Origin: a virus
Lineage: Duplodnaviria > Caudoviricetes
DNA length: 27,531 bases
Strand: one strand, 5' to 3'
Virus record (IMG/VR): IMGVR_UViG_3300032218_001387
Coordinates: 1-27,531 of that record
The position numbers were made by a program, and so were the translations under genes. The notes beneath the pieces were generated by a model that saw nothing but the letters and a program-made list of their open reading frames with translations, did no database searches and was not told the origin of the DNA. Below, one piece after another: positions 1 to 16,681 of this stretch. The first letter of the stretch is position 1. Each line of letters opens with the position of its first letter.

Positions 1-428
1 GTTATCTAGCAACTACAATCTTTCCTTATATAAAAGAAGATCCATATTTAAAATCAAAAATTTCCGGAAATGTTTCTATACGTCTAATAGGTGCGTGGAT
101 TAATTTTCAAGAAAAATATGAATTTAATCCTCCTCACGACCACGATGGAGACTTGAGTTTTGTTATTTGGATTTCTATTCCTTACAATATAAATTCAGAA
201 TTAACAAACTCTCCTAGTGTTAAATCAAATTATCCGGTTGCAGGTCATTTTTCATTTTTATATACAAGTAGTTTAGGTGGAATAGCAGAACATCTTATCC
301 CAGCTGACCGAAGTATGGAAAATACTCTTTTAATTTTTCCAGCTTCATTAAAACATTGTGTTTATCCGTTTTATACTTCAGACGAATTTAGGATTAGTGT
401 GTCAGGCAATTTTGCAATAGATAAATAA
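1..428 (+). CDS. 2OG-Fe(II) oxygenase-like protein (TIGR02466-type), 5'-truncated by the window edge
   Basis: Frame is open from position 3. It reads WINFQEKYEFNPPHDH...LSFVIW...LLIFPASLKHCVYPF...RISVSGN, the HxH...H...RxS pattern typical of phage 2OG-Fe(II) oxygenases. Confidence 0.75.
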   Translation, partial: YLATTIFPYIKEDPYLKSKISGNVSIRLIGAWINFQEKYEFNPPHDHDGDLSFVIWISIPYNINSELTNSPSVKSNYPVAGHFSFLYTSSLGGIAEHLIPADRSMENTLLIFPASLKHCVYPFYTSDEFRISVSGNFAIDK

Positions 429-444
429 TATGTGATAAAGGTTA

Positions 445-493
445 GGTCGGCCATAAACGACCATTTGGGTATTTTGTCAGCCGTAAATGACAA
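445..493 (+). promoter_or_regulatory. Two tandem hairpins with near-identical 8-nt loops (GCCATAAA / GCCGTAAA) in the DNA polymerase leader; candidate translational operator
   Basis: GGTCG-gccataaa-CGACC (445-462) and TTGTCA-gccgtaaa-TGACAA (474-493), directly before the SD-like AGGAAG (495-500) and ATG 506. Confidence 0.6.
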
Positions 494-505
494 TAGGAAG
501 AATAT

Positions 506-3175
506 ATGAGTTATGTAGACGCATCGTGGGATCGCGACCAAGACATCGTTCGAGTTGTCGAACGCGATCCAAAGAAAGGCAGAATTTATCACGAGTATCC
601 TGCCAAATATCTATTTTATTATCCCGATCCTCGTGGCAAATATAGATCAATTCATGGCGAAAGTTTAAGTAAAGTTTCCTCCAAAAGTTGGAAGGAACAT
701 ACAAAAGAACAACGAATACACAGCAACCATAAACTTTACGAAAGCGACATTAATCCAGTATTCCGCTGCCTGGAAGAAAATTATCTAGGTAAAGATGCTC
801 CTAAATTAAATGTGGCATTTTTTGATATCGAAGTAGATTTTGATCCGGAACGAGGATATGCCAGTCCGGATGATGCGTTTATGCCAATCACAGCAATTGC
901 TGTACATTTACAATGGCTGGATACACTAGTATGTTTGGCTGTTCCTCCTAAAACATTAACTATAGAGCAGGCAGAAGAGCAAGTTAAAGAATTTCCAAAT
1001 ACACTGTTGTTTGAAACAGAACACGAAATGCTGGATGCATTTTTAAATTTAATCGACGATGCAGATGTATTAAGTGGCTGGAATTCAGAAGGGTTTGATA
1101 TTCCATATACTGTTAATCGTGTAACTAAAGTTTTAAGTAAAGAAGATACACGTAGATTTTGTCTCTGGGATCAAATGCCTAAAAAACGCGAGTATGAAAA
1201 ATATGGCAAAACTGCTGTTACATACGATTTAGTTGGGCGAGTGCATTTAGATAGCCTTGAATTATATCGGAAATATACTTACGAAGAACGACACACATAT
1301 CGATTAGATGCTATCGGTGAAATGGAAATCGGAGAAAGTAAAACAGTATACGAAGGTACCTTAGATCAGTTGTATAACAACGATTTTAGAAAGTTTATCG
1401 AATATAATAGACAAGACTGTTCGTTGTTAAACAAATTAGATAAAAAATTAAAGTTTTTAGATCTTGCTAGTACCATTGCACATGAAAATACTGTATTATT
1501 ACAGACAACTATGGGAGCGGTTGCAGTAACCGAGCAAGCAATTGTTAATGAATCTCACCATCGTGGATTAATCGTTCCTAGTCGCCCAAAACGCGATGAT
1601 GACATTAGTAATCAAGCAGCAGGAGCATATGTAGCATATCCTAAAAAAGGATTACACGATTATATTGGGTCTATGGACATTAATAGTCTATACCCCAGTG
1701 TTATTCGTGCATTGAATATGGGCCCAGAAACTATTATCGGGCAATTACGGCAAGATTATACTAAGACGGAAATCGAAGAGAAGATGTCCAAAGGAGCAAG
1801 TTTTGCTGCTGCTTGGGAAGGAAAATTCGGCAGTAACGAATACGAATTTGTCGTTAGTAAAGATAGAAGCCACGATATTCACGTAGATTGGGAAAACGGT
1901 GAGACTGATATTATGAGCGGTGCGCAAATCTATGAAGCAATTTACGAAAGTGGCAAACCCTGGATATTATCAGCTAACGGTACTATTTTTACATATGAGC
2001 ATGAAGGTATTATTCCGGGCTTGTTAAAGCGATGGTATGCCGAACGAAAAGAAATGCAGGCTAAATTAAAAGAAGCGCAAAAAGCGGAGAATAAAATTGA
2101 AGAAGAATATTGGGATAAACGTCAGTTGGTTAAGAAGATTAATCTCAACAGTTTGTATGGTGCTATTCTTAACGCTGGGTGCCGCTTTTTTGACAATAGA
2201 ATCGGACAATCAACTACACTCACAGGCCGTCAAATTGCTCGTCACATGGCTTCAAAAATCAACGAAGTAATTACTGGTGAATATAATCACTTAGGCAAAG
2301 CCATTATCTATGGCGATACTGATAGTGCGTATTTTAGTGCGTACAATACTTTGAAAAATGAAATTGTCAAAGGTGAAATTACGTGGGATAAGGATACAGT
2401 AATTAAGTTATATGATAGCGTGGCAGCAGAAGTAAATTCTACTTTTCCACAGTTTATGTTGGATGCATTCCATACTCCAAAATCACGCGGCGAAGTTATT
2501 AAAGCAGGACGAGAAATTGTTGCAATTAAAGGGTTGTTTATTACTAAAAAGCGATATGCTGTATTGTATTATGACAAGGAAGGTAAGAGATTAGATGTGG
2601 AAGGTAAGCCGGGTAAAATTAAAGCCATGGGGTTAGATCTTAAACGTAGTGATACTCCAGAATTTATGCAACGCTTCTTAGAAGAAGTATTAACTGAAGT
2701 ATTGAACAGCGGGGAAGAAACAGAGATTTTAGAGATGATCACTAAATTTCGAACTGAATTTAAAGCTCGGCCAGGTTGGGAAAAAGGAAGTCCAAAAAGA
2801 GCAAATAATATCACCGAATATCAAGAAAAAGAAAAGAAAGCAGGTAAAGCCAATATGCCTGGACATGTTCGAGCTAGTATTAATTGGAATACATTGCGTA
2901 AAATGAACGGTGACAAATATTCTATGCAAATTGTAGACGGTATGAAAGTTATTGTTTGTAAAGTTAAAGAAAATCCTTTAGGTTTTACCTCAGTAGCATA
3001 TCCGGTTGATGAATTAAGATTACCTAAATGGTTTCAAGAGTTACCATTTAATCATCAAGAAATGGAAACGACCATTATTAATAATAAATTAGAAAATTTA
3101 ATCGGCGTATTGGAGTGGGATTTACAATCCACTTTACAAAATAATACATTTGATAACTTCTTCAGCTTTGAATAA
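506..3175 (+). CDS. polB: Family B DNA polymerase with 3'-5' exonuclease domain
   Basis: Exo motifs FFDIEV, GWNSEGFDIPY, YNRQD; polymerase motifs DINSLYPS, KINLNSLYG, YGDTDS, KKRY. No intein evident. Confidence 0.97.
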   Translation: MSYVDASWDRDQDIVRVVERDPKKGRIYHEYPAKYLFYYPDPRGKYRSIHGESLSKVSSKSWKEHTKEQRIHSNHKLYESDINPVFRCLEENYLGKDAPKLNVAFFDIEVDFDPERGYASPDDAFMPITAIAVHLQWLDTLVCLAVPPKTLTIEQAEEQVKEFPNTLLFETEHEMLDAFLNLIDDADVLSGWNSEGFDIPYTVNRVTKVLSKEDTRRFCLWDQMPKKREYEKYGKTAVTYDLVGRVHLDSLELYRKYTYEERHTYRLDAIGEMEIGESKTVYEGTLDQLYNNDFRKFIEYNRQDCSLLNKLDKKLKFLDLASTIAHENTVLLQTTMGAVAVTEQAIVNESHHRGLIVPSRPKRDDDISNQAAGAYVAYPKKGLHDYIGSMDINSLYPSVIRALNMGPETIIGQLRQDYTKTEIEEKMSKGASFAAAWEGKFGSNEYEFVVSKDRSHDIHVDWENGETDIMSGAQIYEAIYESGKPWILSANGTIFTYEHEGIIPGLLKRWYAERKEMQAKLKEAQKAENKIEEEYWDKRQLVKKINLNSLYGAILNAGCRFFDNRIGQSTTLTGRQIARHMASKINEVITGEYNHLGKAIIYGDTDSAYFSAYNTLKNEIVKGEITWDKDTVIKLYDSVAAEVNSTFPQFMLDAFHTPKSRGEVIKAGREIVAIKGLFITKKRYAVLYYDKEGKRLDVEGKPGKIKAMGLDLKRSDTPEFMQRFLEEVLTEVLNSGEETEILEMITKFRTEFKARPGWEKGSPKRANNITEYQEKEKKAGKANMPGHVRASINWNTLRKMNGDKYSMQIVDGMKVIVCKVKENPLGFTSVAYPVDELRLPKWFQELPFNHQEMETTIINNKLENLIGVLEWDLQSTLQNNTFDNFFSFE

Positions 3176-3182
3176 AAAATTG

Positions 3183-3211
3183 TTGACAAATCGAATAAAC
3201 CTAAATAAAAT
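3183..3211 (+). promoter_or_regulatory. Sigma70-like promoter for the clamp/modification operon
   Basis: TTGACA (3183-3188), 17-nt spacer, TAAAAT (3206-3211), intergenic and upstream of SD AAAGGA and ATG 3231. Confidence 0.75.
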
Positions 3212-3230
3212 AACACAAAGGAAAAATAAT

Positions 3231-3962
3231 ATGAAAGACTTCTTACAAGATTTAGTATCACACACGCATAACTTAGGATTTTTAACAACCCTTAAGGTTA
3301 CTGCCACCGAAAAAGACACTGCTATCGAATCGATGGCTGAAGACCGTAGCGTTATTCTTAATGCAAAGACAAATGCCCCAATAGAGAATCTTATTGGTAC
3401 ATTTGGAATGCCTAATTTGAACAAATTAGATATTCATCTAAAGTGCCCAGAATATCAGGACGGTGCTAAGATTGAAGTTGTTCAAGCACAACGAAATGAA
3501 AAAACTATTCCAACCGGGTTGCATTTTGAAAACCTCAATGGCGATTTCGAAAATGATTATTTGTTTATGAATGAAGAAATCATTAATACTGCATTAAAGA
3601 CTGTAAAATTTAAAGGTGCTAAATGGGACATCGAAGTTGTGCCTACTGTAAACAGCATTGCTAAATTGCGGTTTCAAGCAGCAGCAAATAGTGAGGAATC
3701 AACGTTTCAAGTTTCTACAGATGACAACAAATTGGTGTTTAAGTTTGGTGATGCTAGCACACACGCAGGATCATTTGTATTTCAAGACGGCATCACTGGT
3801 AAACTAAAACAAAAGTGGTCATATCCTATAGATCATGTTTTAAAGATTTTAAATTTAACTGGGGATAAGATCATGCGCATTGCCGACGGCGGTGCTATGA
3901 ATATCACTGTAGATAGTGGCGTAGCACAATATGATTATGTGTTGCCTGCACAAAGCAAATAA
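3231..3962 (+). CDS. Probable DNA polymerase sliding clamp / processivity factor (243 aa; start moved to ATG 3231)
   Basis: Size of PCNA/gp45, beta-rich pattern, C-terminal AMNITVDSGVAQYDYVLPA strand pair, located right after polB. ATG 3231 has an SD and lies downstream of the promoter. Fold is inferred, not searched. Confidence 0.55.
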   Translation: MKDFLQDLVSHTHNLGFLTTLKVTATEKDTAIESMAEDRSVILNAKTNAPIENLIGTFGMPNLNKLDIHLKCPEYQDGAKIEVVQAQRNEKTIPTGLHFENLNGDFENDYLFMNEEIINTALKTVKFKGAKWDIEVVPTVNSIAKLRFQAAANSEESTFQVSTDDNKLVFKFGDASTHAGSFVFQDGITGKLKQKWSYPIDHVLKILNLTGDKIMRIADGGAMNITVDSGVAQYDYVLPAQSK

Positions 3963-5497
3963 TGAATACTGATCTAACAGCAGCCCAACTCGACTATGCG
4001 TATTTTCTGCCGGCAACGTCGGGATTTTATAGCACTTATATAGGAAAACAAAGATACGGTAATTATGTAGATCCCGCACGTATTCCTAAAAGTTTTAAAA
4101 ATGGTGTAGAAAGTCTCAATTATCTAGATCCGGATAAGGGTGCTTTCTATTACGATCATTGTTTATATAGTGCAGGTCACGCTAATTTAGATCTTAATAA
4201 GCAGGATGAAGGCGAAGATATGTTTCGCAATCGAAATCGTGCTACTAGTTGGGTATTAGGCGATTCAGGCGGATTCCAAATTGGTAAGGGCAAATGGGAA
4301 GGTGATTGGAAAGATCCTTCCTGTCCTAAAGCACAAAAGAAACGATCACAAGTATTAACTTGGATGGATGCGCTCATGGATTATGGAATGATTTTAGATA
4401 TTCCAGCATGGGTCTCTCGCAGTCCCGAGGGTGCTAAAGCTACAGGAATTAGCACATATGCAGAAGCAGTTAATGCTACCTTTATTAATAATGATTATTT
4501 TATTAAGAATCGCAATGGTAATTGTAAATTCTTAAATGTATTGCAGGGAGAAAATCATACTGATGCCGAAGGTTGGTATCAGCATATGAAGAAATATTCT
4601 GATCCTAAACAATATCCGGGCGCACACTTTAATGGGTGGGCAATGGGTGGACAGAATATGTGTGATGTTCATTTAGTATTAAAGAGATTAGTAGCATTAC
4701 GATTTGATGGATTATTGGAAGAAGGCCAGCAAGATTGGATGCACTTTTTAGGCACTAGTAAACTAGAATGGGCATTGTTACTAACAGACTTACAACGAGC
4801 TGTTCGCAAGTATCATAATCCTAAATTTAGTATTAGTTATGATTGCGCAAGCCCATTCCTAGCTACTGCTAATGGACAAATTTATGTACAGACAGAGATC
4901 ACAGATCGTGAAAAATGGCTATATAGAATGTTACCTAGTGTAGATAATAAAAAATATTCTCAGGATACTAGAACGTTCAGAGATGCTGTTTTACAAGATA
5001 AATTTTTTGAAAACTTTGAAGATAGCCCTATTATGCAAGGCGTCGAAATTAAAGATATTTGTATCTATTCTCCCGGCGACCTAAATAAGATTGGCAAGGA
5101 AGGTAAAACTTCTTGGGACAGTTTCACTTATGCTATTATGATGGGTCATAATGTTTGGACACATATTAATAGTGTGCAGGAAGCCAATCGTCAATATGAT
5201 GCAGGATTGTGCCCAGGAATGTTAGTTGATGAAAGATTTGATCGTGTCTTTTTTAAGGACATAGTCGATGCTATTTTTAGTACGAGTGATCGAGGCACCG
5301 CCGAAGCAATCATTGAAGAATTTAGTAAATTCTGGATGCGTATTCCGGGTACAAGAGGATATACTGGAAAGAGAACTGTTAACGCTAGCACAAAGGCCAA
5401 TGAATTTATCGATTTCGAAGGAAATCTTGTTATAGAAAAACAAGACAAGATCGAACAACCAAAAGTTGTGTTAAACGACGGACTATTTGAAATATGA
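3962..5497 (+). CDS. dpdA: TGT-fold (queuine tRNA-ribosyltransferase / DpdA-like) base-exchange transglycosylase
   Basis: TGT motifs in the expected order: GDSGGFQ, MILDIP, NVLQG, GWAMGG, MHFLG, SYDCASP (nucleophile-Asp position), GHNV. Clustered with queD/queE-like genes. Confidence 0.72.
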   Translation: MNTDLTAAQLDYAYFLPATSGFYSTYIGKQRYGNYVDPARIPKSFKNGVESLNYLDPDKGAFYYDHCLYSAGHANLDLNKQDEGEDMFRNRNRATSWVLGDSGGFQIGKGKWEGDWKDPSCPKAQKKRSQVLTWMDALMDYGMILDIPAWVSRSPEGAKATGISTYAEAVNATFINNDYFIKNRNGNCKFLNVLQGENHTDAEGWYQHMKKYSDPKQYPGAHFNGWAMGGQNMCDVHLVLKRLVALRFDGLLEEGQQDWMHFLGTSKLEWALLLTDLQRAVRKYHNPKFSISYDCASPFLATANGQIYVQTEITDREKWLYRMLPSVDNKKYSQDTRTFRDAVLQDKFFENFEDSPIMQGVEIKDICIYSPGDLNKIGKEGKTSWDSFTYAIMMGHNVWTHINSVQEANRQYDAGLCPGMLVDERFDRVFFKDIVDAIFSTSDRGTAEAIIEEFSKFWMRIPGTRGYTGKRTVNASTKANEFIDFEGNLVIEKQDKIEQPKVVLNDGLFEI

Positions 5498-6387
5498 ATA
5501 AAAGAAGTTTAGTTATTGGAATGGGGATCGGAAGACTTTATAAAGAAGTTTTAGAAAATTTAGGGTATGAAGTAATTACCGTAGATTTAAACCCCGACGT
5601 ACAAGCGATGTATACTGATATTACCGAATGTTTGAAAGAATATCCAAAATTTGATACAGTACATATTTGTACTCCAAACTTTACACACTATATAATTGCC
5701 GAACAAGTAGCAAACCAGACAGACATTGTATTTGTCGAAAAACCCGGAGTTAAAACTGCCAACGAATGGTTAGAATTAATATCTAAATATCCTAACACAC
5801 GATTTATGATGGTTAAAAATAACCAATATCGTGGAGAAGCATTAGACATAATAAAAGAATCAATTAAACAATCTAAATTAATAAATCTCCTATGGATTAA
5901 CAATGATCGTGTGCCTAATCCTGGAACTTGGTTTACCACTAAAGAATTAGCATACGGCGGCGTTAGCAGAGATTTAATGCCGCATTTATTAAGTTTGTTT
6001 ATAAAATTAGAACCTGATTATATGACTGCTGGTGTTAAAGAATATGCCAAATTACAGCAATGGACATTAGATCAAATAACTCATACTGACTACGGAATAA
6101 TTAAAAAAGATGGCATTTATGACGTAGATGATTATTGCGGATTTAAATTCGAAGTAAATGGAAGGATTTGGAATATAGTTGCCGATTGGAGAAGTTTAGA
6201 AGGAGATCGATCCCAAATCGTGTGTTCTACTCCTGGAATTGGTCAAGTAGATATTCTTGAGCTTGGATTATGTCATGAATCTGCTTATGAATCTATGATC
6301 GATACTGCCGTTAAAAATATCGATAATGATAAATTTTGGTTAGAACAACTTATACAAGATTATTGGATCCATAAGAGAATTGAATGA
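5494..6387 (+). CDS. Gfo/Idh/MocA family NAD(P)-dependent oxidoreductase
   Basis: LVIGMGIG Rossmann start, ICTPNFTH, FVEKP, GGVSRDLMPH motifs; ATGA overlap with the upstream gene. Confidence 0.88.
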   Translation: MNKRSLVIGMGIGRLYKEVLENLGYEVITVDLNPDVQAMYTDITECLKEYPKFDTVHICTPNFTHYIIAEQVANQTDIVFVEKPGVKTANEWLELISKYPNTRFMMVKNNQYRGEALDIIKESIKQSKLINLLWINNDRVPNPGTWFTTKELAYGGVSRDLMPHLLSLFIKLEPDYMTAGVKEYAKLQQWTLDQITHTDYGIIKKDGIYDVDDYCGFKFEVNGRIWNIVADWRSLEGDRSQIVCSTPGIGQVDILELGLCHESAYESMIDTAVKNIDNDKFWLEQLIQDYWIHKRIE

Positions 6388-7274
6388 AAGTAAGATTATT
6401 ACATACTATCGGTAATGGGTCATTTGAAGAAATAATCTGGGATAAACCAGATCCTGCAGAAAACGAAATCGAAGTTCGAGCAGTTATGACCGGAGTATGT
6501 CGTAGCGATATTGATATGATGCAGGGAAACTTTGGCCCACTACCGTTACATATGCAAGGCCACGAAGGATTAGGAATTGTTACTCGAATAGGCAATTCTA
6601 TAAACAATGTCGAGGTCGGCGACTGCGTTGCTACACGCGGTGAACCGGCATATGCGGATTATTATAATTGTCGAGAAAATGAATTTGTTGTAGTACCAGA
6701 ATTAGAACCTAAATATATTCTAGAACCAGTTGCGTGTGGTATTAACTGCGTTAACCAAGCCATTGATGAAATTCGTAAGAGAATAAATGGAAAATTTTTA
6801 ATTATCGGTAGTGGATTCCTTGCATGGGTTGTATATAACAATCTTATGCATTATTTTAAAGATATAACGATTGATGTAGTGGGAAGAAGCAACAAGGAAT
6901 TATTTGGAGATATATTGTTAGATATTCCAAACGGGTCATACGATGTTGTAATCGATTTAGGGTCTGGAACAGAAGTATTCGATCAGCCAATTTTAAACAT
7001 TAACGCATTAATTGTATTTGGAGTTGAAAAGACTATAACAACCAATTTCCAAAATCTGCTTTGGCGAGCATGTACTATGATTTTTCCAAGTCCACGTACC
7101 GACGGATTTACTCATTGTATGTTTGAAGCAAAAGATCTTATCGAATCCGGTAAATTAAACATTGACAAATTTTGGACTCAAGCGTATAATCGTAACACGA
7201 ACTGGAAACAAGCGTTTTTGGATGGCGCAAATCGTCCAAATGGTTATAGCAGAGGATATATTAAGTGGGATTGA
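6384..7274 (+). CDS. Zn-dependent medium-chain dehydrogenase/reductase (polyol/threonine dehydrogenase-like)
   Basis: GVCRSD, GHEGLG, LEPVACG catalytic-Zn motifs and IIGSGFLA nucleotide-binding loop. The four-Cys structural-Zn lobe is absent. Confidence 0.88.
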   Translation: MKVRLLHTIGNGSFEEIIWDKPDPAENEIEVRAVMTGVCRSDIDMMQGNFGPLPLHMQGHEGLGIVTRIGNSINNVEVGDCVATRGEPAYADYYNCRENEFVVVPELEPKYILEPVACGINCVNQAIDEIRKRINGKFLIIGSGFLAWVVYNNLMHYFKDITIDVVGRSNKELFGDILLDIPNGSYDVVIDLGSGTEVFDQPILNINALIVFGVEKTITTNFQNLLWRACTMIFPSPRTDGFTHCMFEAKDLIESGKLNIDKFWTQAYNRNTNWKQAFLDGANRPNGYSRGYIKWD

Positions 7275-7783
7275 ACACTGAAGAACGGTTGAAAACAACG
7301 TATTTCACCGGCTATGAAGTGGAACATACTGTATGCTATGGTATGTTTACTTTATTTGTTGTGGGTGTACAACCTGCTAAAGAGATTTTAGAATTGGCTA
7401 GTACGCATGATGTACAGCAAATTTACTTTGGTACTAGCCAAAGTTTTCCTAACATTAACATAAATGACGCCGAAGAATGGCAGAATTGGGAAACAATGAT
7501 TAAAGAATGTTTGGATAATGGTTACTGGTGTACATTAGATTTAGATGTTAAGCAAGCAGAAGGTCTATTAGAAAGTGGACTGTGTGAGCATAACCGATTT
7601 GTTCCGATGATCAGTGTTAAACTTCCATACATTCGTCAATTTAATTACAATACAACAATCAAGTTGGATGATAAGACTTGGGGTGCCACAAACACAGGAG
7701 TTTGGACGCATCAACTACACGATTTAATGAATAAAGACAAATATACTCATTGGGATCTATACACTAAGGATACGAATGTATGA
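7265..7783 (+). CDS. Hypothetical protein within the modification operon
   Basis: 172-aa ORF with GTG start, overlapping both neighbours; globular alpha/beta-like sequence with no motif I recognise. Confidence 0.7.
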   Translation: MGLNTEERLKTTYFTGYEVEHTVCYGMFTLFVVGVQPAKEILELASTHDVQQIYFGTSQSFPNININDAEEWQNWETMIKECLDNGYWCTLDLDVKQAEGLLESGLCEHNRFVPMISVKLPYIRQFNYNTTIKLDDKTWGATNTGVWTHQLHDLMNKDKYTHWDLYTKDTNV

Positions 7784-7956
7784 TTACTGCAAAAATTTCT
7801 AAAACTACACCGACTACTACTCTTACCGAAGATAAACTTTTCAAGTTACTTGAAAGTATCGATTGGAAGTTGTGGGAAATTATGAACATGATGAAGGATA
7901 ACCTTCCCGAAAAGGCTAAGACTGTTAAGGTCAAAGCTGTTAAGAAAGGCGCATGA
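7780..7956 (+). CDS. Small hypothetical protein (58 aa, not in ORF track)
   Basis: MITAKISKTTPTTTLTEDKLFKLLESIDWKLWEIMNMMKDNLPEKAKTVKVKAVKKGA; ATGA overlaps at both ends fill the gap exactly. Confidence 0.75.
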   Translation: MITAKISKTTPTTTLTEDKLFKLLESIDWKLWEIMNMMKDNLPEKAKTVKVKAVKKGA

Positions 7957-8327
7957 TGATTCAACCAGTTAATATGATTTGGGTAACCTTCCAAAAGGAA
8001 GGTATCCACTGTTATCCGGCTGCGGCAACAGATGTACGTCTAGAAGATGTGAGTTTTCTCGGATCGCCGCATCGCCATATTTTTCATTTTAAGGTTTGGA
8101 TTGAAGTTTTTCATGATGACCGAGATATCGAATTTATTCAGTTTAAACGTTGGCTTGAGCGATGCTATAATGATGGCACACTCGAGCTTAACTACAAATC
8201 CTGCGAGATGATTGCTCGTGACTTAAACACGACAATTACAGCAAGATATCCAAATAGAGATATTTGGATCGAAGTCAGTGAGGACAGTGAGAATGGCTGT
8301 TTCCTTACTTTTCCATCAACCCTTTAA
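7953..8327 (+). CDS. queD: QueD/PTPS-like T-fold protein (6-carboxytetrahydropterin synthase-like)
   Basis: H...HRH metal triad (GIHCY...PHRHIFH), DIEFIQFK, SCEMIA, IEVSED matching the QueD layout; 124 aa. Confidence 0.7.
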   Translation: MMIQPVNMIWVTFQKEGIHCYPAAATDVRLEDVSFLGSPHRHIFHFKVWIEVFHDDRDIEFIQFKRWLERCYNDGTLELNYKSCEMIARDLNTTITARYPNRDIWIEVSEDSENGCFLTFPSTL

Positions 8328-8343
8328 TAAAAGGATATAAATC

Positions 8344-8586
8344 ATGGCAACCCCTGCCTACATTCAGAAGAGCCTGCGTATGAAGCCCGAAGTTACTCGG
8401 ATCTATGACGATTTGGAAGCATGGTTGGATCATTGTAGATTCAACTTAATGCCTTTTAATCCTGCGGACTTATACAAGTCTAAGGAATATAAGGACTTTC
8501 AGCGTCAGTCTGAATATCTTCAACGTAAGGCTCGTCGAGCTGCCGAAGGTAAACCAGAGCCGGCTCGGCGTCCTAAGGCTCGTTAA
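8344..8586 (+). CDS. Small hypothetical protein with basic C-terminus
   Basis: SD AAAGGA upstream; 80 aa; K/R-rich tail; stop overlaps the next start. Confidence 0.75.
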   Translation: MATPAYIQKSLRMKPEVTRIYDDLEAWLDHCRFNLMPFNPADLYKSKEYKDFQRQSEYLQRKARRAAEGKPEPARRPKAR

Positions 8587-9686
8587 TGACGATATTCCTC
8601 ATAGATCTTGAGGCGGTAGAAACTAGGTACACTGGCGAATGGAAGCGCCATGTACCTAATCTATTGAAACATCACGGTCATAGTGTAAAAATTATTTCTG
8701 GTCCGGCTGATATTCCATCTGCAACAACTCCAGGTGCTTTTCTTAATTTTGGCGGCACTAATATTTACAAGGCAGCTCAAGTTGCAGAAATGGGTAAACT
8801 ATTCTGTTCAGGCGAAGTTAAGCCTGGAGACCATTTCTTGTTTACCGATGCTTGGCATCCCGGTATTATAAACTTGAAATATATGAGTGAGCTGTTACAG
8901 ATTCCTGTAACAACACATGGATTATGGCATGCAGGATCATATGATCCTCAAGACTTCTTAGGTAGATTAGTTGGTAATAAACCCTGGGTTAGAAACGCAG
9001 AGAAAAGTTTCTTTCATTGTTTTGATTACAATTATTTTGCTACGCAGTTTCATATAGAAATGTTCTTTACTAACTTGTTGAATGACCATCCGTCAGAAAA
9101 CCCGTGGTTTCACGATGAGTTAACAGATTTACGAGCAGGTACATTAACTACAAAAATTGTGCGTACTGGCTGGCCTATGGAATATATGGATACAACTCTA
9201 ACAGCATATAAAAATATGCCTAAAAGAGATTTAATTTTGTTTCCCCATCGTATTGCTCCAGAAAAACAAGTAGAAATATTTCGAGATTTGAAAGAACAGC
9301 TTCCACAATACGAGTTTGTTGTTTGCCAAGATCAACAACTGACGAAGAATGAATACCATAATTTATTGGGCGAGGCCAAACTTGTTTTCAGTGCTAACTT
9401 ACAGGAAACATTAGGAATTAGCTGTTATGAAGGTGCTATTCTAGATGCTATACCTATGGTTCCTGACAGATTAAGTTATACAGAAATGTACTTTGAAGAT
9501 TTTAAGTATCCGCAGGAATGGACACAAAATTGGACCAAGTATTTACTAAACCGAGATTCACTTTGTAAAAAAATAATCGAATACATGGAAAATTATAAAA
9601 ATTTCATCCCGTTAATTCGAGAACAAAATACAGGATTGACAGAAAACTTCTTTTCATGCCACCCGTTATTAAAGAATTTAAAATGA
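8586..9686 (+). CDS. GT-B (GT4-like) glycosyltransferase
   Basis: FPHRIAPEK and the E-x7-E signature QETLGISCYEG, followed by PMVPDRLSYTEM. Confidence 0.88.
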   Translation: MTIFLIDLEAVETRYTGEWKRHVPNLLKHHGHSVKIISGPADIPSATTPGAFLNFGGTNIYKAAQVAEMGKLFCSGEVKPGDHFLFTDAWHPGIINLKYMSELLQIPVTTHGLWHAGSYDPQDFLGRLVGNKPWVRNAEKSFFHCFDYNYFATQFHIEMFFTNLLNDHPSENPWFHDELTDLRAGTLTTKIVRTGWPMEYMDTTLTAYKNMPKRDLILFPHRIAPEKQVEIFRDLKEQLPQYEFVVCQDQQLTKNEYHNLLGEAKLVFSANLQETLGISCYEGAILDAIPMVPDRLSYTEMYFEDFKYPQEWTQNWTKYLLNRDSLCKKIIEYMENYKNFIPLIREQNTGLTENFFSCHPLLKNLK

Positions 9687-11701
9687 AAAAAATTTTATTA
9701 ATTTTATTAATGGCGTGCAGTAACTCTGCATTTTCTCAAACTACTGCCGCATCATTTGATACTGCCGAATATTATAAAAGTAGAGCCCTTGTACCAGTAC
9801 ATGCAGATCAAACATGGGCCAAAGGATATACAGGAGCAGGTAGCATAATTGCTATTTTAGATACTGGTATCGATTCTACCAATACAGATTTTCAAGGTAA
9901 AATCATCGCATCTAAAGATTTTAGCGGCAGCGGAACTATTATTGATACTAACGGACATGGTACTGAGGTTGCAGGGATTGCTGCCGCAGCACAAAATAAC
10001 ATAGGTACAGAAGGAGTTGCTCCCGGCGCTAATTTAGTTATTGCAAAAATTTCTTCTAATGGTATAGTGTTAAGTTCAACCGCGTTATCTGGGTTGCAAT
10101 GGGCTAATACAACTGGTGCTATTGTTGCAAATTTATCTGTTAATTCTACATTAACTGCTGCTTCAATCGGTGCAAAATTAATTGCACCTGGAATTTATAG
10201 CACAAATTTTACCAATACTACTAACTTGGTAGGCGGGATTAATCCTAATCAATGGGCGGCAGCAATGCCCAACGACATGGTATTAGTCATTGCTGCCGGT
10301 AACGACGGAACGCCATGGTCGGGCGGATGGAGTCAGATTGCAACTGCAACTAACATCTCAGGATCCCTTATACTAGGTGGTCGAGTTATTATTGCAGGCA
10401 ACTGGAATGAACAGACAAATAGCGGTCCAGGCGCGGGAAATAACGGTGCAGCAACTCTGTGTCAAGTTGTTGTCTCAGGAGTTTGTCAAGACAAATATCA
10501 AGCATGGCAATTTTATCTTATGGCTCCTGGAGTAGGAATTACTACAACAGCGCCATTGGCTGTTAATAGTTTAAGATTAGCCACTGTTTCCGGAACATCG
10601 TTTGCTGCTCCTACTATTAGTGGCGCGGTTGCTATCATACATCAAGAATGGCCGCAGATGACAGCGGCTAATATTGTTCAGCTATTACTAATGACCGCCA
10701 ATAAAAATATTCCAGGATATAATCCTTATATTGATGGCCAGGGGTTATTAGATCTCAATGCAGCCACACAACCTATTGGGTCTTTAGGTATTCCTACAAC
10801 AAAATCTATGTTGGGGCGACGAGCAACATCTATTCAGCCAGTATTAATTACATCTGGTAGTGCAGGTACTGCTAATCTAAAACCCTTAATGATTTTAGAC
10901 AGTTTTAACAGAGATTATTACATTAATAGCAAAATTTTAACTGCCAGTATTACTGCCCCAAATGATTATAATGTAATGCAAAATTCTTTACCTTATTTTA
11001 CAGGAAATACCTATACACTGTTTAATAATTATTCTAACTATCTGAAATTTACTAGAGAAGATTCCAGTGTTACTTGGTATTTTAATTCTCAAAATACTTC
11101 TTTGGATTCTCCTGCAATGGCAGAAATTGCAGTAAAAAAACATTATAAACTTTTTGACGTGGATTATAGTACAGGTGCATTTTCCGAACATCAGACTTGG
11201 TTAGGCAATTGGTTTTATGGTAATAACAATACTAGTAATACCGATAGCGTTACTCATTTTTATAGAGCACAATTACAAAAATCTTTTGAAAATAACATCA
11301 AATTGTTTGGTGGTATTGGACAAGGTGTTACTTTTACCAAATCTAATAGCCCTATAATTAATGCCGTCGGCCCGGCATTAAGTTGGACATGGAATGTAGG
11401 TATAGAAAAAACATTTAAAAATGGTTCTGTAGGTGTAATGTCTTACACTCCTGTTAATGTTTGGCATGCACACGCCGCATTTAATTCTCCGGTGGGGCTT
11501 GATAAAAATTTCGATGTAGTGCAAAATAGTCAGGGTGATCTGGCGGCTACTGTGCATGAATATCGTACAGGCGCATATTTTAAGATCAATGATCAAAAGA
11601 CCGTAAATATGTTAGCGTTTATTGAACATCGAAGAAATTTCCAAGGACAATCAGATATTACCGATAATGCTGTTGGGTTAGTTGTAACTAAACATTTCTA
11701 A
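9683..11701 (+). CDS. Subtilisin-like S8 serine peptidase with signal peptide and C-terminal beta-barrel-like domain (start moved to 9683)
   Basis: Signal peptide MKKILLILLMACSNSAFS; catalytic D (ILDTG), H (GHGTEVAG), oxyanion N (AAGN), S (SGTSFAAP); amphipathic beta-strand C-terminus ending in Phe. Confidence 0.9.
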   Translation: MKKILLILLMACSNSAFSQTTAASFDTAEYYKSRALVPVHADQTWAKGYTGAGSIIAILDTGIDSTNTDFQGKIIASKDFSGSGTIIDTNGHGTEVAGIAAAAQNNIGTEGVAPGANLVIAKISSNGIVLSSTALSGLQWANTTGAIVANLSVNSTLTAASIGAKLIAPGIYSTNFTNTTNLVGGINPNQWAAAMPNDMVLVIAAGNDGTPWSGGWSQIATATNISGSLILGGRVIIAGNWNEQTNSGPGAGNNGAATLCQVVVSGVCQDKYQAWQFYLMAPGVGITTTAPLAVNSLRLATVSGTSFAAPTISGAVAIIHQEWPQMTAANIVQLLLMTANKNIPGYNPYIDGQGLLDLNAATQPIGSLGIPTTKSMLGRRATSIQPVLITSGSAGTANLKPLMILDSFNRDYYINSKILTASITAPNDYNVMQNSLPYFTGNTYTLFNNYSNYLKFTREDSSVTWYFNSQNTSLDSPAMAEIAVKKHYKLFDVDYSTGAFSEHQTWLGNWFYGNNNTSNTDSVTHFYRAQLQKSFENNIKLFGGIGQGVTFTKSNSPIINAVGPALSWTWNVGIEKTFKNGSVGVMSYTPVNVWHAHAAFNSPVGLDKNFDVVQNSQGDLAATVHEYRTGAYFKINDQKTVNMLAFIEHRRNFQGQSDITDNAVGLVVTKHF

Positions 11702-11709
11702 GAAATTAC

Positions 11710-12183
11710 ATGAAAAAATTATTCTATTCTTTTTTAAATTTTCTCGAAAAACATGATCGTAAAAGGATCGTGTTAGATCGACAAAGCCGAGAACCCTATC
11801 TCGAACGCTATTATATCTTTTTAAAAGATAGAAAATTATTTCCATTTAACGTGTTTATTCACAAATTTTTGAAATCCGATCCGGATGACGTACACGATCA
11901 TCCATGGCCTTATGCAACATTTATTTTAGCAGGAGGTTATTATGAATGGGTTCCGCAATTCACTAGCCAAGGAACAATGATTGGGGAAATTCGTCATTGG
12001 AGAGGACCTAGTCATTTTAGAATTTGTCGGCCGGAAAGTTATCATCGTATTGAATTAAAAGAAGATGTTACTCCATGGACGTTATTCATGCCGGGCCCGC
12101 AGCGACGTGAATGGGGATTTTTAGTTAATAATCGGTGGATACACAACGAGCAGTACTTAACGGAAAAAGCAAAAGGAAATTAA
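11710..12183 (+). CDS. Cupin-fold metal-binding protein
   Basis: HDHPW...GGYYE...YHRIEL...WTLF pattern (HxH...E...H) of a common phage cupin family. Confidence 0.7.
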   Translation: MKKLFYSFLNFLEKHDRKRIVLDRQSREPYLERYYIFLKDRKLFPFNVFIHKFLKSDPDDVHDHPWPYATFILAGGYYEWVPQFTSQGTMIGEIRHWRGPSHFRICRPESYHRIELKEDVTPWTLFMPGPQRREWGFLVNNRWIHNEQYLTEKAKGN

Positions 12184-12185
12184 AA

Positions 12186-12692
12186 GTGAAAAAATTAACA
12201 TTAGAGTATACTCAATACAAAAACTTAGTAGCTAATCTGTGTCAAAAAATTATTGTTAGTGAGTGGATGCCGGATTACGTCGTGGGTATTAGCCGTGGTG
12301 GATTGTTGGCTGCTACTATGATTAGCCACTATTTAGAAGTACCTATGAAGCCATTACAGGTTAGTTTACGAGACGGCGAGTGTGTCAGTGACTTAGGTAT
12401 TGCCGAAGATGCATTTGGTTTGCTCTCCTTGCGTAAAAACATTTTAATTGTAGACGACATCAATGACACTGGTGCTACATTTAACTGGATCATGGAAGAT
12501 TGGCCTAGTGGGTGTTTTCCTGACAATCCGTCTTGGAAAGAAGTTTGGAACAATAATGTTAAGTTTGCTGTAACTATCGACAATCTTGCCAGCAAGTGTA
12601 ATGTTAAAATGGATTACACGGGTATGGAGATTAACAAAGCAGAAAATGATGTTTGGGTCGAATTTCCTTATGAGGTTTGGTGGAAGAATTAA
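12186..12692 (+). CDS. Type I purine phosphoribosyltransferase (xanthine-guanine PRT-like; start moved to GTG 12186)
   Basis: VVGISRGGL, PRPP loop ILIVDDINDTGATF, C-terminal WVEFPYE; SD AAAGGA before GTG 12186. Confidence 0.9.
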   Translation: MKKLTLEYTQYKNLVANLCQKIIVSEWMPDYVVGISRGGLLAATMISHYLEVPMKPLQVSLRDGECVSDLGIAEDAFGLLSLRKNILIVDDINDTGATFNWIMEDWPSGCFPDNPSWKEVWNNNVKFAVTIDNLASKCNVKMDYTGMEINKAENDVWVEFPYEVWWKN

Positions 12693-12857
12693 ATGGTTTG
12701 CGGTCAATGTGGTTTAGATATCATCGATAAAAAATATTATGCACACAAAGAGTGGAAACCAGTAAATCCATTGCATAATCATCCAGATAATATTATTATA
12801 TTTTGTGGGCCGCGATGTAGTTTAGATTGGCATACAAATAACAAGGATAAGAAATGA
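12693..12857 (+). CDS. Small Zn-finger-like protein (54 aa, not in ORF track)
   Basis: [11 protein letters not shown]...[14 protein letters not shown], a CxxC...FCxxxC pattern (TRASH/FCS-like); begins right after the PRTase stop and has an ATGA overlap with guaC. Confidence 0.7.
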
Positions 12858-13936
12858 GAATCGAAAATGAAATTTTGCTAGACTTTAAAGACGTACTAAT
12901 TCGTCCTAAGCGTAGTACTCTTGCTAGTCGCAAAGACGTTGACTTATCAAGAAAATATAAATTTCGCTGGAGTGGCAAGACTTGGACTGGTGTGCCTATC
13001 ATGGCTGCTAATATGGATGGAGTTGGCACATTCGACATGGCAGAAGCACTGTCTTATGTTAAGATGTTTACTTGTTTAGTTAAAAGTTATACTGTTAAAG
13101 ATTTCAACGAACGATACAGCTATGCTATTCAACCCAATATCGCGGTCAGCACTGGTATCAGTGAACGAGATTATGTAAATCTTGTATCAGTAATGATGGC
13201 ACACCCGCACATTGACTTTATTTGTGTTGATGTTGCTAATGGGTACAGCGAACATTTTGGCGATTTTATTGCTAAGGTTCGTGAAGAGTTTAAAGATAAG
13301 ACTATTATTGCGGGCAATGTTGTTACCGCAGATATGACACAGGAGTTAATTTTACGTGGAGCAGATATTGTTAAAGTTGGAATTGGGCCTGGGAGCGTTT
13401 GCACGACTCGTATTCAAACTGGCGTTGGCTATCCTCAGCTTAGTGCTATTATTGATTGCAGTGACGCTGCTCATGGACTTGGTGGACACATCATCGCAGA
13501 CGGAGGATGTACCTGCCCAGGAGATGTCGCTAAAGCATTCGGAGCGGGTGCTGACTTTGTGATGTTAGGCGGAATGCTTTCAGGACACGATGAAGGCGGA
13601 GGAACTGTAATTGAAGAAATGTGGCAATTAGATAAGTTACAAGAAAACAGCTTTGCTCATGATTACGATGTCAAAAAATTTGTAGAATTTTACGGTATGA
13701 GTTCAGACACTGCTATGACTAAACACAGCGGAGGAGTTGCTGAATATCGTAGCAGCGAAGGTCGCAAAGTTCGTGTTCCGTATCGCGGTCCTGTAAAAAA
13801 TACAGTAAATGACCTGCTTGGCGGATTGCGCAGTACTTGTACATATGTTGGTGCACAATCATTAAAACAATTGAGCAAATGCACAACATTTGTTCGTGTT
13901 AACAGTCAATATAATGATGTATTTGTAAGGAAATAA
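12854..13936 (+). CDS. guaC: GMP reductase
   Basis: [55 protein letters not shown]; typical GuaC with no CBS domains. Confidence 0.96.
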
Positions 13937-13938
13937 AA

Positions 13939-14316
13939 ATGGACGAAATATTTGTTGGGCCCAAAACTATTGAAGAAGCTAATGTTCCATGGACTGACGT
14001 GTTTCAAGAAGACTTTCATGTCATAGTCTACAAAGACAAGTATCCCGTAACCGAAGGCCATTTATTATTTGTACCTAAATATAATTCATTGTCTGTTTTA
14101 ACTGATGCGTTCGAAGACGCTGTACGTTATGGTAAGCAGATGGTTACTGAAAAAGTGTGGGACGGATTTAATATCGGGTTAAACGCCGAAGAAGCAGCAG
14201 GGCAGACCGTAATGTGGCCTCACATACATCTTATTCCGCGCAGAAAAGGCGATGTTGTAGATCCGGTCGGTGGGGTGAGAAATACTATTCCTGGAAAAGG
14301 TAATTACAGAATTTAA
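13939..14316 (+). CDS. HIT family nucleotide hydrolase
   Basis: DKYPVTEGHLLFVPK, GFNIGLN, AAGQTVMWPHIHLIPR. Confidence 0.9.
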   Translation: MDEIFVGPKTIEEANVPWTDVFQEDFHVIVYKDKYPVTEGHLLFVPKYNSLSVLTDAFEDAVRYGKQMVTEKVWDGFNIGLNAEEAAGQTVMWPHIHLIPRRKGDVVDPVGGVRNTIPGKGNYRI

Positions 14317-15314: not shown

Positions 15315-15322
15315 AGGTATTG

Positions 15323-15351
15323 TTGACAAATCTAAATAGTTTATATATACT
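15323..15351 (+). promoter_or_regulatory. Sigma70-like promoter upstream of queE
   Basis: TTGACA (15323-15328), 17-nt spacer, TATACT (15346-15351). Confidence 0.8.
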
Positions 15352-15378
15352 ACTTATCTTATAATAGCAGACTAACAA

Positions 15379-16254
15379 ATGAGTAAAATAAAAATATCAG
15401 AAGCATTTTATAGTATACAAGGTGAAGGACTTTGGACAGGTGTCCCTAGTGTTTTTTTAAGAACATTTGGTTGTAACTTTACTTGTAGCGGATTTGGTAT
15501 GCCACATGGAGCAAAATCTCAAGAACACGAGCGTGTAGCAGAAATACACAAGACATTACCATTCAAATCTTATGAAGATTTGCCATTGGTTAAAACGGGC
15601 TGCGATAGTTATGCTGCTTGGGACGTTAGATTTAAGGATCTAAGCCCAATGCTAACAGTAGATGCCATTGTAGAACGATTGCTACAATTAATACCAAACA
15701 ATCGATGGACACAACCCAATGGACAAGATGTACATTTGGTCATTACAGGCGGCGAACCGTTACTAGGTTGGCAGCGCAGTTATATAGAATTATTAGAACA
15801 CAAGGGTATGCAAGATCTAAAAAATCTTACATTTGAAACAAATGCAACGCAACAACTTCATAAAGAGTTTGCTGACTATCTTAAAGTTAGACAAAGAAAA
15901 CTCCATGTCACATGGTCCTGCAGTCCAAAACTCACCGTCAGCGGTGAAACGTGGGAAAATGCAATACAACCTGACATTGTTAAGTCTTATTATGATTTAT
16001 ATTGTCATGGTGGTAGCAGTCTGTATCTTAAGTTTGTCGTTGCCACTAATGATGATATACTCGATGTTAACAGGGCTGTGGCAGATTATCAAAAGGCTGA
16101 CATCCATTGTCCGGTCTACTTAATGCCTGTGGGGGGCACAGTTGAAAGTTATATGATGAACAATCGACAGGTAGCGGAATATGCTATGGGCCAGGGCTGG
16201 AGATATAGTCCAAGACTGCAAGTTGATTTATTTGGAAACGCATGGGGAACTTGA
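15379..16254 (+). CDS. queE: 7-carboxy-7-deazaguanine synthase QueE-like radical SAM enzyme
   Basis: ISEAFYSIQGEG, VFLRTFGCNFTC...GCDS, VITGGEPL, FETN, SCSPKL, LKFVV, VYLMP, RYSPRLQ. Confidence 0.88.
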   Translation: MSKIKISEAFYSIQGEGLWTGVPSVFLRTFGCNFTCSGFGMPHGAKSQEHERVAEIHKTLPFKSYEDLPLVKTGCDSYAAWDVRFKDLSPMLTVDAIVERLLQLIPNNRWTQPNGQDVHLVITGGEPLLGWQRSYIELLEHKGMQDLKNLTFETNATQQLHKEFADYLKVRQRKLHVTWSCSPKLTVSGETWENAIQPDIVKSYYDLYCHGGSSLYLKFVVATNDDILDVNRAVADYQKADIHCPVYLMPVGGTVESYMMNNRQVAEYAMGQGWRYSPRLQVDLFGNAWGT

Positions 16255-16255
16255 T

Positions 16256-16681
16256 ATGAAGAATATTGTTAAAAAACTTTTTGGTATTGAAAAATTACAA
16301 ATTGCTAAAAAGCAAGCAGAAGAAGAATTAAAATCTGCACAAGAAGCGGCAGACACTGTTAAAGAATCGAATCGAATACAAGGGTTGTCTCCTAAGGATC
16401 TAGCTACAGAAAAGAAAGAACCATGGGTAGGATGTTTAGATGTTCAAGTTAATTCAGAAAATGTACGTAATGGATTTTTTGAATTAGATTGGAATGAATT
16501 CTTTGTTCAAGAATTAAGACGAGCAGGATATACTGGGCAAACCGACGAAGAAGTAGTTGCTGCTTGGTTTTCTGATGTTGCTAGAAACTCAGCAGAACAG
16601 GAAGGTATTGATATGTCTCGACGAGGTTCGGGTTACATCAATACCAATAATCTCGGTGGCGGAAGAACAGAAGTAAGTTAA
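16256..16681 (+). CDS. Hypothetical protein (start moved to ATG 16256)
   Basis: Starts one base after the queE stop; coiled-coil-like N-terminus, NGFFELDWN core. Confidence 0.75.
   Translation: MKNIVKKLFGIEKLQIAKKQAEEELKSAQEAADTVKESNRIQGLSPKDLATEKKEPWVGCLDVQVNSENVRNGFFELDWNEFFVQELRRAGYTGQTDEEVVAAWFSDVARNSAEQEGIDMSRRGSGYINTNNLGGGRTEVS

What the first reader, a model, noticed from the sequence alone, without database searches (positions are those of the whole stretch)
3231..9686. Candidate new pathway: glycosylated 7-deazaguanine hypermodification operon attached to the replisome genes
Seen: behind one promoter, mostly with overlapping stop/start codons, are a clamp-like gene, a TGT-fold enzyme, a Gfo/Idh/MocA oxidoreductase, a Zn-MDR dehydrogenase, two unknown ORFs, a QueD-like gene, a small ORF and a GT4 glycosyltransferase. 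QueE is at 15379. Established: FolE-QueD-QueE make 7-carboxy-7-deazaguanine (CDG), and phage DpdA (TGT paralogs) swap 7-deazaguanines into DNA as anti-restriction marks (preQ0, preQ1, G+, ADG and others). Inference: the sugar transferase and two redox enzymes point to a sugar-decorated deazaguanine. I do not know of such a base described in phage DNA. Alternative: the target is tRNA (Q-like modification, e.g. against anticodon nucleases).
Basis: partly seen in the sequence, partly recalled or inferred. Interest (0 to 1): 0.92.

Follow-up and report, generated by a model that had tools for sequence, protein, structure and literature searches.

The report
Sugar enzymes inside phage deazaguanine genes
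A large uncultured phage carries, behind its DNA polymerase, genes that likely swap guanine in its DNA for 7-deazaguanine, plus a sugar transferase that travels with them in phages and bacteria and two optional redox enzymes, so its DNA may bear a sugar-decorated purine that I found in no searched paper and that has not been measured here.

Summary
The gene run is real, with three corrections. The 'QueD-like' gene is DpdL, the proposed CDG decarboxylase (LxxxHRHxF motif). A second, conserved, perfect sigma-70 site lies inside the MDR gene, so 'one promoter' is unlikely. folE and queD are not in the window.

The TGT-like protein is 36% identical to the PA5oct protein that Cui 2023 lists as DpdA3. 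PA5oct DNA resists five restriction enzymes, which points to DNA rather than tRNA.

The GT folds as a retaining GT-B. It follows dpdL in 42 of 42 informative viral loci, has a dpdA-like neighbour in 18 of 18 bacterial loci, and is absent from phiST, whose DNA has plain dDG.

Best reading: DNA deazaguanine with an added sugar (about 0.5); no chemistry exists. This scan has noted the same module on many other genomes.

The parts
3183..3211 (+). sigma-70-type promoter-like site (TTGACA-17-TAAAAT) before the clamp-like gene
   Evidence: 11 of 12 matches; a site of at least 11/12 lies upstream of the clamp gene in 63 of 97 distinct related stretches
3231..3962 (+). sliding-clamp-like protein, 243 aa
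   Evidence: phrog_12062 E 2e-34; 32% to the Phosso protein annotated as a sliding clamp and 32% to the PA5oct syntenic protein; follows the family B polymerase 506-3175
3962..5497 (+). DpdA-type DNA transglycosylase, 511 aa, PA5oct/Phosso (DSGG) type
   Evidence: 35.9% to PA5oct QCG76197.1, E 5e-91, listed under DpdA3 in Cui 2023 DS1; D101-SGG, Q195-G, H261-FLG, D294 invariant in 52 diverse homologues; no CxCxxC in 180 sequences
5494..6387 (+). Gfo/Idh/MocA oxidoreductase, 297 aa, optional
   Evidence: PF01408 E 3e-7; best PDB sequence hit of the profile is DgpA 7xr9, E 1.4e-8; EKP kept in 118 of 119 homologues
6384..7274 (+). Zn-MDR dehydrogenase, 296 aa, optional, paired with the Gfo gene
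   Evidence: PF08240 E 4e-11; GxCxSD and GHEG kept in 112 of 113 homologues, no structural-Zn cysteine cluster in any
7162..7190 (+). perfect sigma-70 consensus inside the 3' end of the MDR gene; likely internal promoter for the downstream genes
   Evidence: 12 of 12; at least 11/12 in 37 of 57 distinct homologous ends; Val/Ile codon ends in TT in 56 of 57 against GTT in 42% of Val codons elsewhere
7265..7783 (+). conserved 172-aa protein, partial beta/alpha barrel; possibly a QueE-fold protein without the Fe-S motif
7780..7956 (+). 58-aa ORF, unknown, not part of the conserved module
   Evidence: tblastn hit in 3 of 80 related loci only
7953..8327 (+). DpdL (QueD paralogue, proposed CDG decarboxylase), 124 aa
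   Evidence: LGSPHRHIF matches LxxxHRHxF; 58.8% to ACP17 DpdL, 54.7% to PA5oct DpdL, 32.7% to phiST DpdL; no hit to PA5oct or ACP17 QueD
8344..8586 (+). 80-aa ORF between dpdL and the GT in this clade, unknown
   Evidence: present at this place in most environmental relatives; not detected in PA5oct, Phosso, ACP17 or X1 loci
8586..9686 (+). retaining GT-B glycosyltransferase (GT4/GT5-like fold), 366 aa
   Evidence: model pLDDT 93; Foldseek hits glycogen synthase E 8e-10, BshA, MshA, PglA, tetrahydrobiopterin glucosyltransferase; E274-x7-E282 kept in 134 of 135 homologues; 42% to PA5oct QCG76198.1, which lies between dpdA and dpdL
15379..16254 (+). QueE-like CDG synthase with its own promoter-like site at 15323-15351
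   Evidence: phrog_2076 E 9e-48; NCBIfam QueE models E 1e-9 to 2.5e-12, below cut-off; promoter 11 of 12

Best explanation
This is a QueC-less, DpdL-type gene set that likely replaces some guanines in the phage DNA with 7-deazaguanine, and the glycosyltransferase that travels with it probably adds a sugar to that base, while the two redox enzymes are an optional cassette that may edit the sugar. Steps: FolE and QueD (not in the window; present in near-complete relatives) and QueE would make CDG (established chemistry). DpdL would decarboxylate it (proposed by Cui 2023, not shown there). DpdA would exchange it for guanine after replication (established for the family, inferred here). The retaining GT-B would transfer a sugar from an NDP-sugar to the base, at N2 as I recall for huimycin or at the C7 freed by decarboxylation (inferred; position unknown). 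The Gfo enzyme would oxidise one sugar hydroxyl to a ketone and the Zn-MDR would reduce it to the epimer (inferred, weakest step). The likely purpose is to block restriction and modification-dependent nucleases.
For: [quoted passage not shown]

Pathway: DpdL motif in 154 of 157 homologues and QueD motif in 0; FolE and QueD in 3 of 3 near-complete relatives, with no full-length QueC.

GT link: 42 of 42 loci with room carry it behind dpdL. It sits between dpdA and dpdL in PA5oct/Paride and ACP17, and beside them in X1 and Phosso in other orders. 18 of 18 bacterial GT loci have a dpdA-like neighbour and 13 of 18 a dpdL-like one. In 4 of 8 bacterial loci scanned, a Vut_1 (PF02592; YhhQ identity recalled) gene lies directly before the GT, 1 above Pfam's cut-off. 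The GT is absent from phiST, whose measured base is plain dDG. Its fold and acidic motif are intact. A GT gene in a 7-deazaguanine cluster is assigned the glycosylation step for huimycin (PMC7439116, passages).

Redox link: 74 of 75 Gfo-seeded loci with room have dpdA upstream; the pair stays between dpdA and GT in a rearranged locus (L158); the top PDB sequence hit is DgpA, recalled as a glycoside 3-oxidising enzyme.
Against: No nucleoside analysis of any GT-bearing phage was found. DpdL activity is unproven: Cui 2023 saw no dDG on expressing the phiST or ACP17 genes in E. coli. The DpdA profile does not detect phiST DpdA3, the chemically tested member (2.7 bits). The GT's fold neighbours act on small molecules, lipids and glucans, and include a pterin glucosyltransferase; no phage DNA glucosyltransferase is in the rows shown. 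DpdL phages phiST, RHph_I1_18 and Ahp1 lack the GT (3 of 5 genomes searched). The redox pair is missing in 36 of 69 loci, changes 11 times on the DpdA tree, is absent from 4 of 5 cultured genomes searched, three of them GT-bearing, and from 5 of 5 bacterial island genomes. It lies 26 kb from dpdA in PA5oct with broken NAD- and Zn-motifs and 107 kb away in G005. folE and queD are not on this fragment. Much of the viral co-occurrence is shared descent.
Confidence: 0.5

Rival explanations
1. DNA carries plain 7-deazaguanine as in phiST, and the GT glycosylates a free small molecule of the pathway (deazaguanine base or a pterin) for storage, detoxification or export; the redox pair could then reduce a pterin side chain.
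For: Tetrahydrobiopterin glucosyltransferases are among the GT's fold hits (E 2.6e-7 to 2.3e-6). HuiG is assigned a free 7-deazapurine as acceptor. A precursor transporter-like gene precedes the GT in some bacterial islands.
Against: The GT is tied to dpdA (18 of 18 bacterial loci) more tightly than to biosynthetic genes. It occurs with the long DSGG-type DpdA (PA5oct, Phosso, ACP17, X1) and not with the phiST/RHph/Ahp1 type. The pterin GTs do not stand out from other GT4/GT5 hits.
Confidence: 0.25
2. The GT has a target outside the deazaguanine pathway (another base, a protein or a surface glycan) and is linked by inheritance only.
For: Jumbo phages carry GT clusters assigned to surface polysaccharides (PMC7824862, passages). 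Environmental loci are close kin, so synteny is expected.
Against: Linkage to dpdA/dpdL holds in at least five gene orders, in unrelated phage lineages and in bacterial islands. No pyrimidine hydroxymethylase was identified in the window; the thymidylate synthase scores as a canonical PF00303.
Confidence: 0.12
3. The transglycosylase modifies tRNA (Q-like), not DNA.
For: The TGT fold is shared with tRNA enzymes; the X1 homologue is annotated as queuine tRNA-ribosyltransferase.
Against: No CxCxxC in 180 homologues, no QueC/QueF route seen (QueC tested), no tRNA gene in the window, a fixed place behind polymerase and clamp, and restriction-resistant PA5oct DNA.
Confidence: 0.06
4. Not exclusive of the above: the Gfo/MDR pair is a metabolic passenger (for example sugar or inositol interconversion) that uses this transcription unit and has no part in the DNA mark.
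For: Patchy presence, unlinked copies in PA5oct and G005, weak NCBIfam hits to inositol and sugar dehydrogenases, other unrelated genes also enter this slot.
Against: Same slot in both deep DpdA branches (about 43% identity) and in a rearranged locus; never one gene without the other in 69 loci; catalytic motifs kept when linked and lost in the unlinked PA5oct copy.
Confidence: 0.5

Closest known systems
DpdL/DpdA3 dDG system of Cellulophaga phage phiST (Cui, Hutinet et al. 2023, PMC10516641)
   Same: DpdL with LxxxHRHxF (32.7% identity), QueE, a DpdA-type transglycosylase, FolE/QueD in relatives, no QueC.
   Different: phiST has no detectable homologue of this GT or MDR; its 259-aa DpdA3 lacks DSGG and is not detected by the profile of the 511-aa protein.
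Pseudomonas phage PA5oct/Paride (Wroclawvirus) locus, listed by Cui 2023 as DpdA3 + DpdL
   Same: Polymerase-clamp-dpdA order, homologous DpdA (36%), GT (42%), DpdL (55%), QueE, Gfo (32%), MDR (40%), 172-aa protein (45%). DNA resists five restriction enzymes.
   Different: gfo-mdr-172aa lie 26 kb away and the two redox genes have lost NAD- and Zn-binding motifs. The GT is not mentioned in the main text of Cui 2023 ('glycosyl' 0 word-start hits). No MS of its DNA was found in the passages read.
Huimycin cluster, Kutzneria albida (PMC7439116)
   Same: A glycosyltransferase in a 7-deazaguanine gene set, assigned to add a sugar to the base.
   Different: A free secondary metabolite made from preQ0 with QueC, with no transglycosylase. 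Homology between HuiG and this GT was not tested.
Phage DNA glycosyltransferases of T-even phages (recalled)
   Same: GT-B enzymes adding sugar to a modified DNA base after replication to block nucleases.
   Different: They act on hydroxymethylated pyrimidines; none appeared among the Foldseek rows shown for this GT.

Membership tests
DpdL | LxxxHRHxF in place of QueD CxxxHGH | tested here: met
   LGSPHRHIF in the window; 154 of 157 homologues, 0 with CxxxHGH
DpdL | homology to listed DpdL proteins; genome with DpdA, FolE, QueD, QueE and no QueC | tested here: met
   32.7-58.8% to phiST, PA5oct, ACP17 DpdL. Gene set checked in three near-complete relatives; the window itself is a fragment without folE/queD
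DpdL | CDG decarboxylase activity | not testable with these tools
   only proposed in PMC10516641
QueD | catalytic CxxxHGH | tested here: not met
   0 of 157; no PF01242 hit
DpdA (DNA transglycosylase) | TGT catalytic motifs and homology to a listed DpdA | tested here: met
   DSGG in 179 of 180, QG in 180 of 180; 35.9% to QCG76197.1; motif labels recalled; protein not folded
DpdA3 (phiST type) | similarity to the chemically tested phiST DpdA3 | tested here: inconclusive
   profile scores phiST gp042 2.7 bits and ACP17 DpdA2 21 bits, although PA5oct's protein is in the DpdA3 column of DS1
DpdA3 (phiST type) | complete replacement of G in DNA | not testable with these tools
   needs nucleoside MS
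tRNA-guanine transglycosylase | CxCxxC zinc-binding motif (recalled) and PF01702 match | tested here: not met
   0 of 180; 1 of 52 members with a marginal PF01702 hit, E 0.026
retaining GT-B glycosyltransferase (GT4-like) | GT-B fold and E-x7-E motif | tested here: met
   362 PDB chains at E <= 0.001, top ones GT5/GT4; motif in 134 of 135
GT4 in the strict sense | PF00534/PF13439 above cut-off | tested here: inconclusive
   window protein has no hit; 9 of 58 homologues hit PF00534 weakly, best E 0.0017; Atlas cluster with 29% PF00534 at 0.99
Gfo/Idh/MocA oxidoreductase | Rossmann glycine motif, EKP, PF01408 | tested here: met
Zn-MDR dehydrogenase | catalytic Zn ligands C/H/E (GHE), PF08240 | tested here: met
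   C39, H60, E61
QueE / radical SAM (for the 172-aa ORF) | CxxxCxxC Fe-S motif | tested here: not met
   0 of 153 homologues
QueE / radical SAM (for the 172-aa ORF) | QueE partial barrel fold | tested here: inconclusive
glycosylated 7-deazaguanine in DNA | nucleoside mass of deazaguanine plus sugar in virion DNA | not testable with these tools
   no such measurement found in searches

The most novel reading that the evidence does not exclude
An abundant clade of 330-400 kb aquatic phages, cultured phages such as PA5oct/Paride and ACP17, and some alphaproteobacterial islands write a sugar-bearing purine into DNA: DpdL frees C7 of 7-deazaguanine, a dedicated GT-B glycosylates the base, and a switchable Gfo/MDR cassette epimerises the sugar to vary the mark, helped by a QueE-derived protein that has lost its Fe-S cluster.
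Probability: 0.25. Interest if true: 0.87.

Novelty: new variant of a known kind. Interest (0 to 1): 0.62.

Why it matters
The sugar-modified phage DNA bases I know of are pyrimidines (recalled), and the eight phage deazaguanines in Cui 2023 carry no sugar. A glycosylated purine would add a new class of DNA mark and a new kind of nucleic-acid glycosyltransferase. It would also name the unidentified modified G of PA5oct, a phage of therapeutic interest that END nucleases target. The gene family is large: 7760 of 8000 scored candidates matched the DpdA. The main prediction needs one LC-MS run on phages already in culture.

Tried and rejected
QueD identity for 7953-8327: rejected (motif). Single promoter: rejected as a description, because a second consensus site is conserved inside the MDR gene; overall promoter-like counts equal shuffles (67 against 66.5), so only the three best sites carry weight. 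PDB sequence searches with DpdA and GT profiles gave nothing useful. The 172-aa ORF had no Pfam, NCBIfam or Atlas hit, no Foldseek PDB hit at E <= 0.001, and no profile match to phage QueE (hhalign probability 0.8%); a search for longer fused forms gave 2 partial hits that I did not follow. UDP-glucose dehydrogenase occurs near many related loci (81 loci) but not in the window, and occurs with or without the redox pair, so it is not treated as core. Tetranucleotide bias in the window (AGCT 0.57 of expected) was not informative. No remote-homologue search of representatives, no second structural ranking of the GT and no complex prediction was obtained, so cellular relatives of the Gfo/MDR pair and a DpdA-GT contact remain untested. 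Iyer et al. 2013 (NAR) on predicted DNA glycosylation systems is not held in the library and could bear on novelty.
Full report
Setting. The window is the whole held record, a 27,531-base virus contig. Its genes match a clade of large environmental phages and, more distantly, Pseudomonas phages PA5oct/Paride and Sinorhizobium phage Phosso. Order polymerase-clamp-dpdA and queE-exonuclease is shared with Paride. Near-complete relatives are 329-400 kb. No tRNA gene is present.

Observation. The nine ORFs from 3231 to 9686 exist and are tightly coupled; the GT stop overlaps the start of the following S8 protease gene. Gfo/Idh/MocA, Zn-MDR and QueE labels come from library hits. The transglycosylase, the T-fold gene, the GT and the small ORFs have no significant Pfam hit.

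The transglycosylase. tblastn against 50,697 phage records gave 14 hits: 11 PA5oct-like records at 35.9%, Vibrio phage 2.275.O, Phosso, and a weak hit annotated as TGT-domain. The PA5oct protein is QCG76197.1, which supplementary sheet DS1 of Cui 2023 lists as DpdA3 with FolE, QueD, QueE and DpdL and no QueC. DSGG, QG, HxLG and D294 are invariant over 52 homologues down to 22% identity; CxCxxC is absent from 180 sequences (these counts include overlapping loci and close kin). The profile does not detect phiST DpdA3 (2.7 bits) and weakly detects ACP17 DpdA2 (21 bits), so the subfamily is unsettled. I did not fold this protein. [quoted passage not shown]

The T-fold gene is DpdL. It has the LxxxHRHxF signature that Cui 2023 define against QueD's CxxxHGH and matches DpdL of ACP17, PA5oct and phiST. 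phiST DNA has dDG in place of dG, but the authors could not rebuild it in E. coli. folE and queD are not in the window. folE lies between GT and queE in 42 of 52 related loci that span both. FolE and QueD were found in 4 of 4 long viral records tested, 3 of them at least 90% complete, and QueC gave only a 76-residue partial hit in one. A second FolE search in five incomplete records found 1 of 5.

The glycosyltransferase. The AlphaFold model (pLDDT 93, 58 sequences) matches retaining GT-B enzymes: glycogen synthase, BshA, MshA, PglA and tetrahydrobiopterin glucosyltransferases. In the 80 best of 433 DpdA-seeded viral loci, 42 had at least 900 bases after dpdL and all 42 carried the GT. It is also beside dpdA or dpdL in Paride, Phosso, ACP17 and X1, in different orders. 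A scan of GTDB genomes gave 28 loci. I set aside 10 whose gene content looks like phage contigs in bins (L165-L173, L191). All 18 others, mostly Alphaproteobacteria, have a dpdA-like neighbour, 13 a dpdL-like one, none a gfo homologue. In 4 of the 8 bacterial loci whose neighbours I partly scanned, a PF02592 gene precedes the GT. The GT profile found nothing in the full genomes of phiST, RHph_I1_18 and Ahp1, all DpdL phages with a non-DSGG DpdA, and found ACP17 and PA5oct. So the GT is an add-on that goes with one type of transglycosylase, not a requirement for dDG.

The redox pair. Of 69 DpdA-seeded loci that reach the 172-aa gene, 33 have both genes and 36 neither. Of 80 loci seeded by the 172-aa gene, 58 have both, 20 neither and 2 are cut. 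On a FastTree of 123 dereplicated DpdA proteins (85 with, 38 without; sampling biased towards 'with' by the Gfo-seeded scan) presence changes 11 times, at least 7 forced by well-supported branches; the nearest row to the window, L002 at 90%, lacks the pair, while L001 at 95%, dropped in dereplication, has it. From the other side, 74 of 75 Gfo-seeded loci with room have dpdA upstream. The exception, G005, has dpdA about 107 kb away. In PA5oct the pair lies 26 kb from dpdA, next to the 172-aa homologue, and is the only copy lacking EKP and GHEG. ACP17, Phosso, X1 and phiST have no MDR homologue. The Gfo profile's best PDB hit is DgpA, recalled as oxidising C3 of C-glycosides; that is a hint, since generic family members follow. 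I read the pair as optional sugar tailoring at about even odds against a passenger.

Promoters. The three best sigma-70 sites in 1-16,500 lie before the clamp gene, inside the end of the MDR gene and before queE. The internal site scores at least 11/12 in 37 of 57 distinct homologous ends, with synonymous codon choice skewed towards it. When the pair is absent, only 1 of 21 stretches upstream of the 172-aa gene has such a site, against 42 of 62 when present. The rows are related, so this is not an independent count.

Mechanism and odds. Deazaguanine in DNA: about 0.87. GT acting within this pathway: about 0.8. Sugar ending on the DNA base: about 0.5. Redox pair editing that sugar: about 0.5 given the former.

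Literature seen. PMC10516641: abstract, passages, two parts of the results, supplement part 1 and a supplement search. PMC12191111, PMC7439116, bioRxiv 2026.04.15.718813, PMC13282480, PMC7824862: passages only. Nine keyword searches listed no paper whose title or abstract start reports a glycosylated deazaguanine in DNA; most listed papers were not opened, subscription papers are largely outside the library, bioRxiv supplements are closed, and Iyer 2013 was not available. The scan's own notes record this module on many other genomes (look-alikes of the GT in 151 windows of 113 genomes; of the Gfo in 18 windows of 12 genomes). They are not independent support.

Verdict. A known kind of system (DpdL-type deazaguanine DNA modification) with a well-linked, unstudied glycosyltransferase and an optional redox cassette. 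New variant of a known kind; interest 0.62; 0.87 if the sugar-bearing purine is confirmed.

Noticed in passing
window 11710-14316: Downstream run of purine-related genes: cupin (phrog_4786), phosphoribosyltransferase, GMP reductase (above NCBIfam cut-off) and HIT protein. Cupin, PRTase and HIT recur after the GT in many relatives; GMP reductase is rare there. Could recycle the guanine released by DpdA.
   Followed up: partly
window 9683-11701: S8 subtilase with an N-terminal signal-like stretch, translationally coupled to the GT; not seen in any of the 80 related loci.
   Followed up: no
window 506-3175 against 3962-5497: The polymerase is 84-87% identical to loci such as L095, L105, L144 and L152 whose DpdA is only about 43% identical, while loci with 80% DpdA have 72-75% polymerase identity: suggests exchange of the modification module between lineages.
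   Followed up: no
L087 10870-12638 (PA5oct QCG76242.1, QCG76243.1): Gfo and MDR homologues are full length but have lost NAD-binding and Zn-ligand motifs: possible pseudo-enzymes kept in all 11 PA5oct-like records (hits; motifs checked in PA5oct only).
   Followed up: partly
L176, L179, L183, L185, L190: Bacterial GT-dpdA islands lie behind a MASE1 histidine kinase (with a LuxR-type regulator in L179 and L185), near integrases and defence-like genes; L176 and L190 add a 585-aa unknown and a second GT4.
   Followed up: partly
L006 6848-7108 and 50 other loci: A conserved protein of about 84 aa follows dpdA in 51 of 80 relatives but is absent from the window.
   Followed up: partly
L158 14518-16549: Rearranged locus (clamp-dpdL-dpdA-gfo-mdr-GT) followed by a cytidylyltransferase-like gene, UDP-sugar dehydrogenase and folE.
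   Followed up: no
window 14313-15329 (- strand): Radical SAM protein with a long proline-rich insert, opposite strand, just before queE.
   Followed up: no
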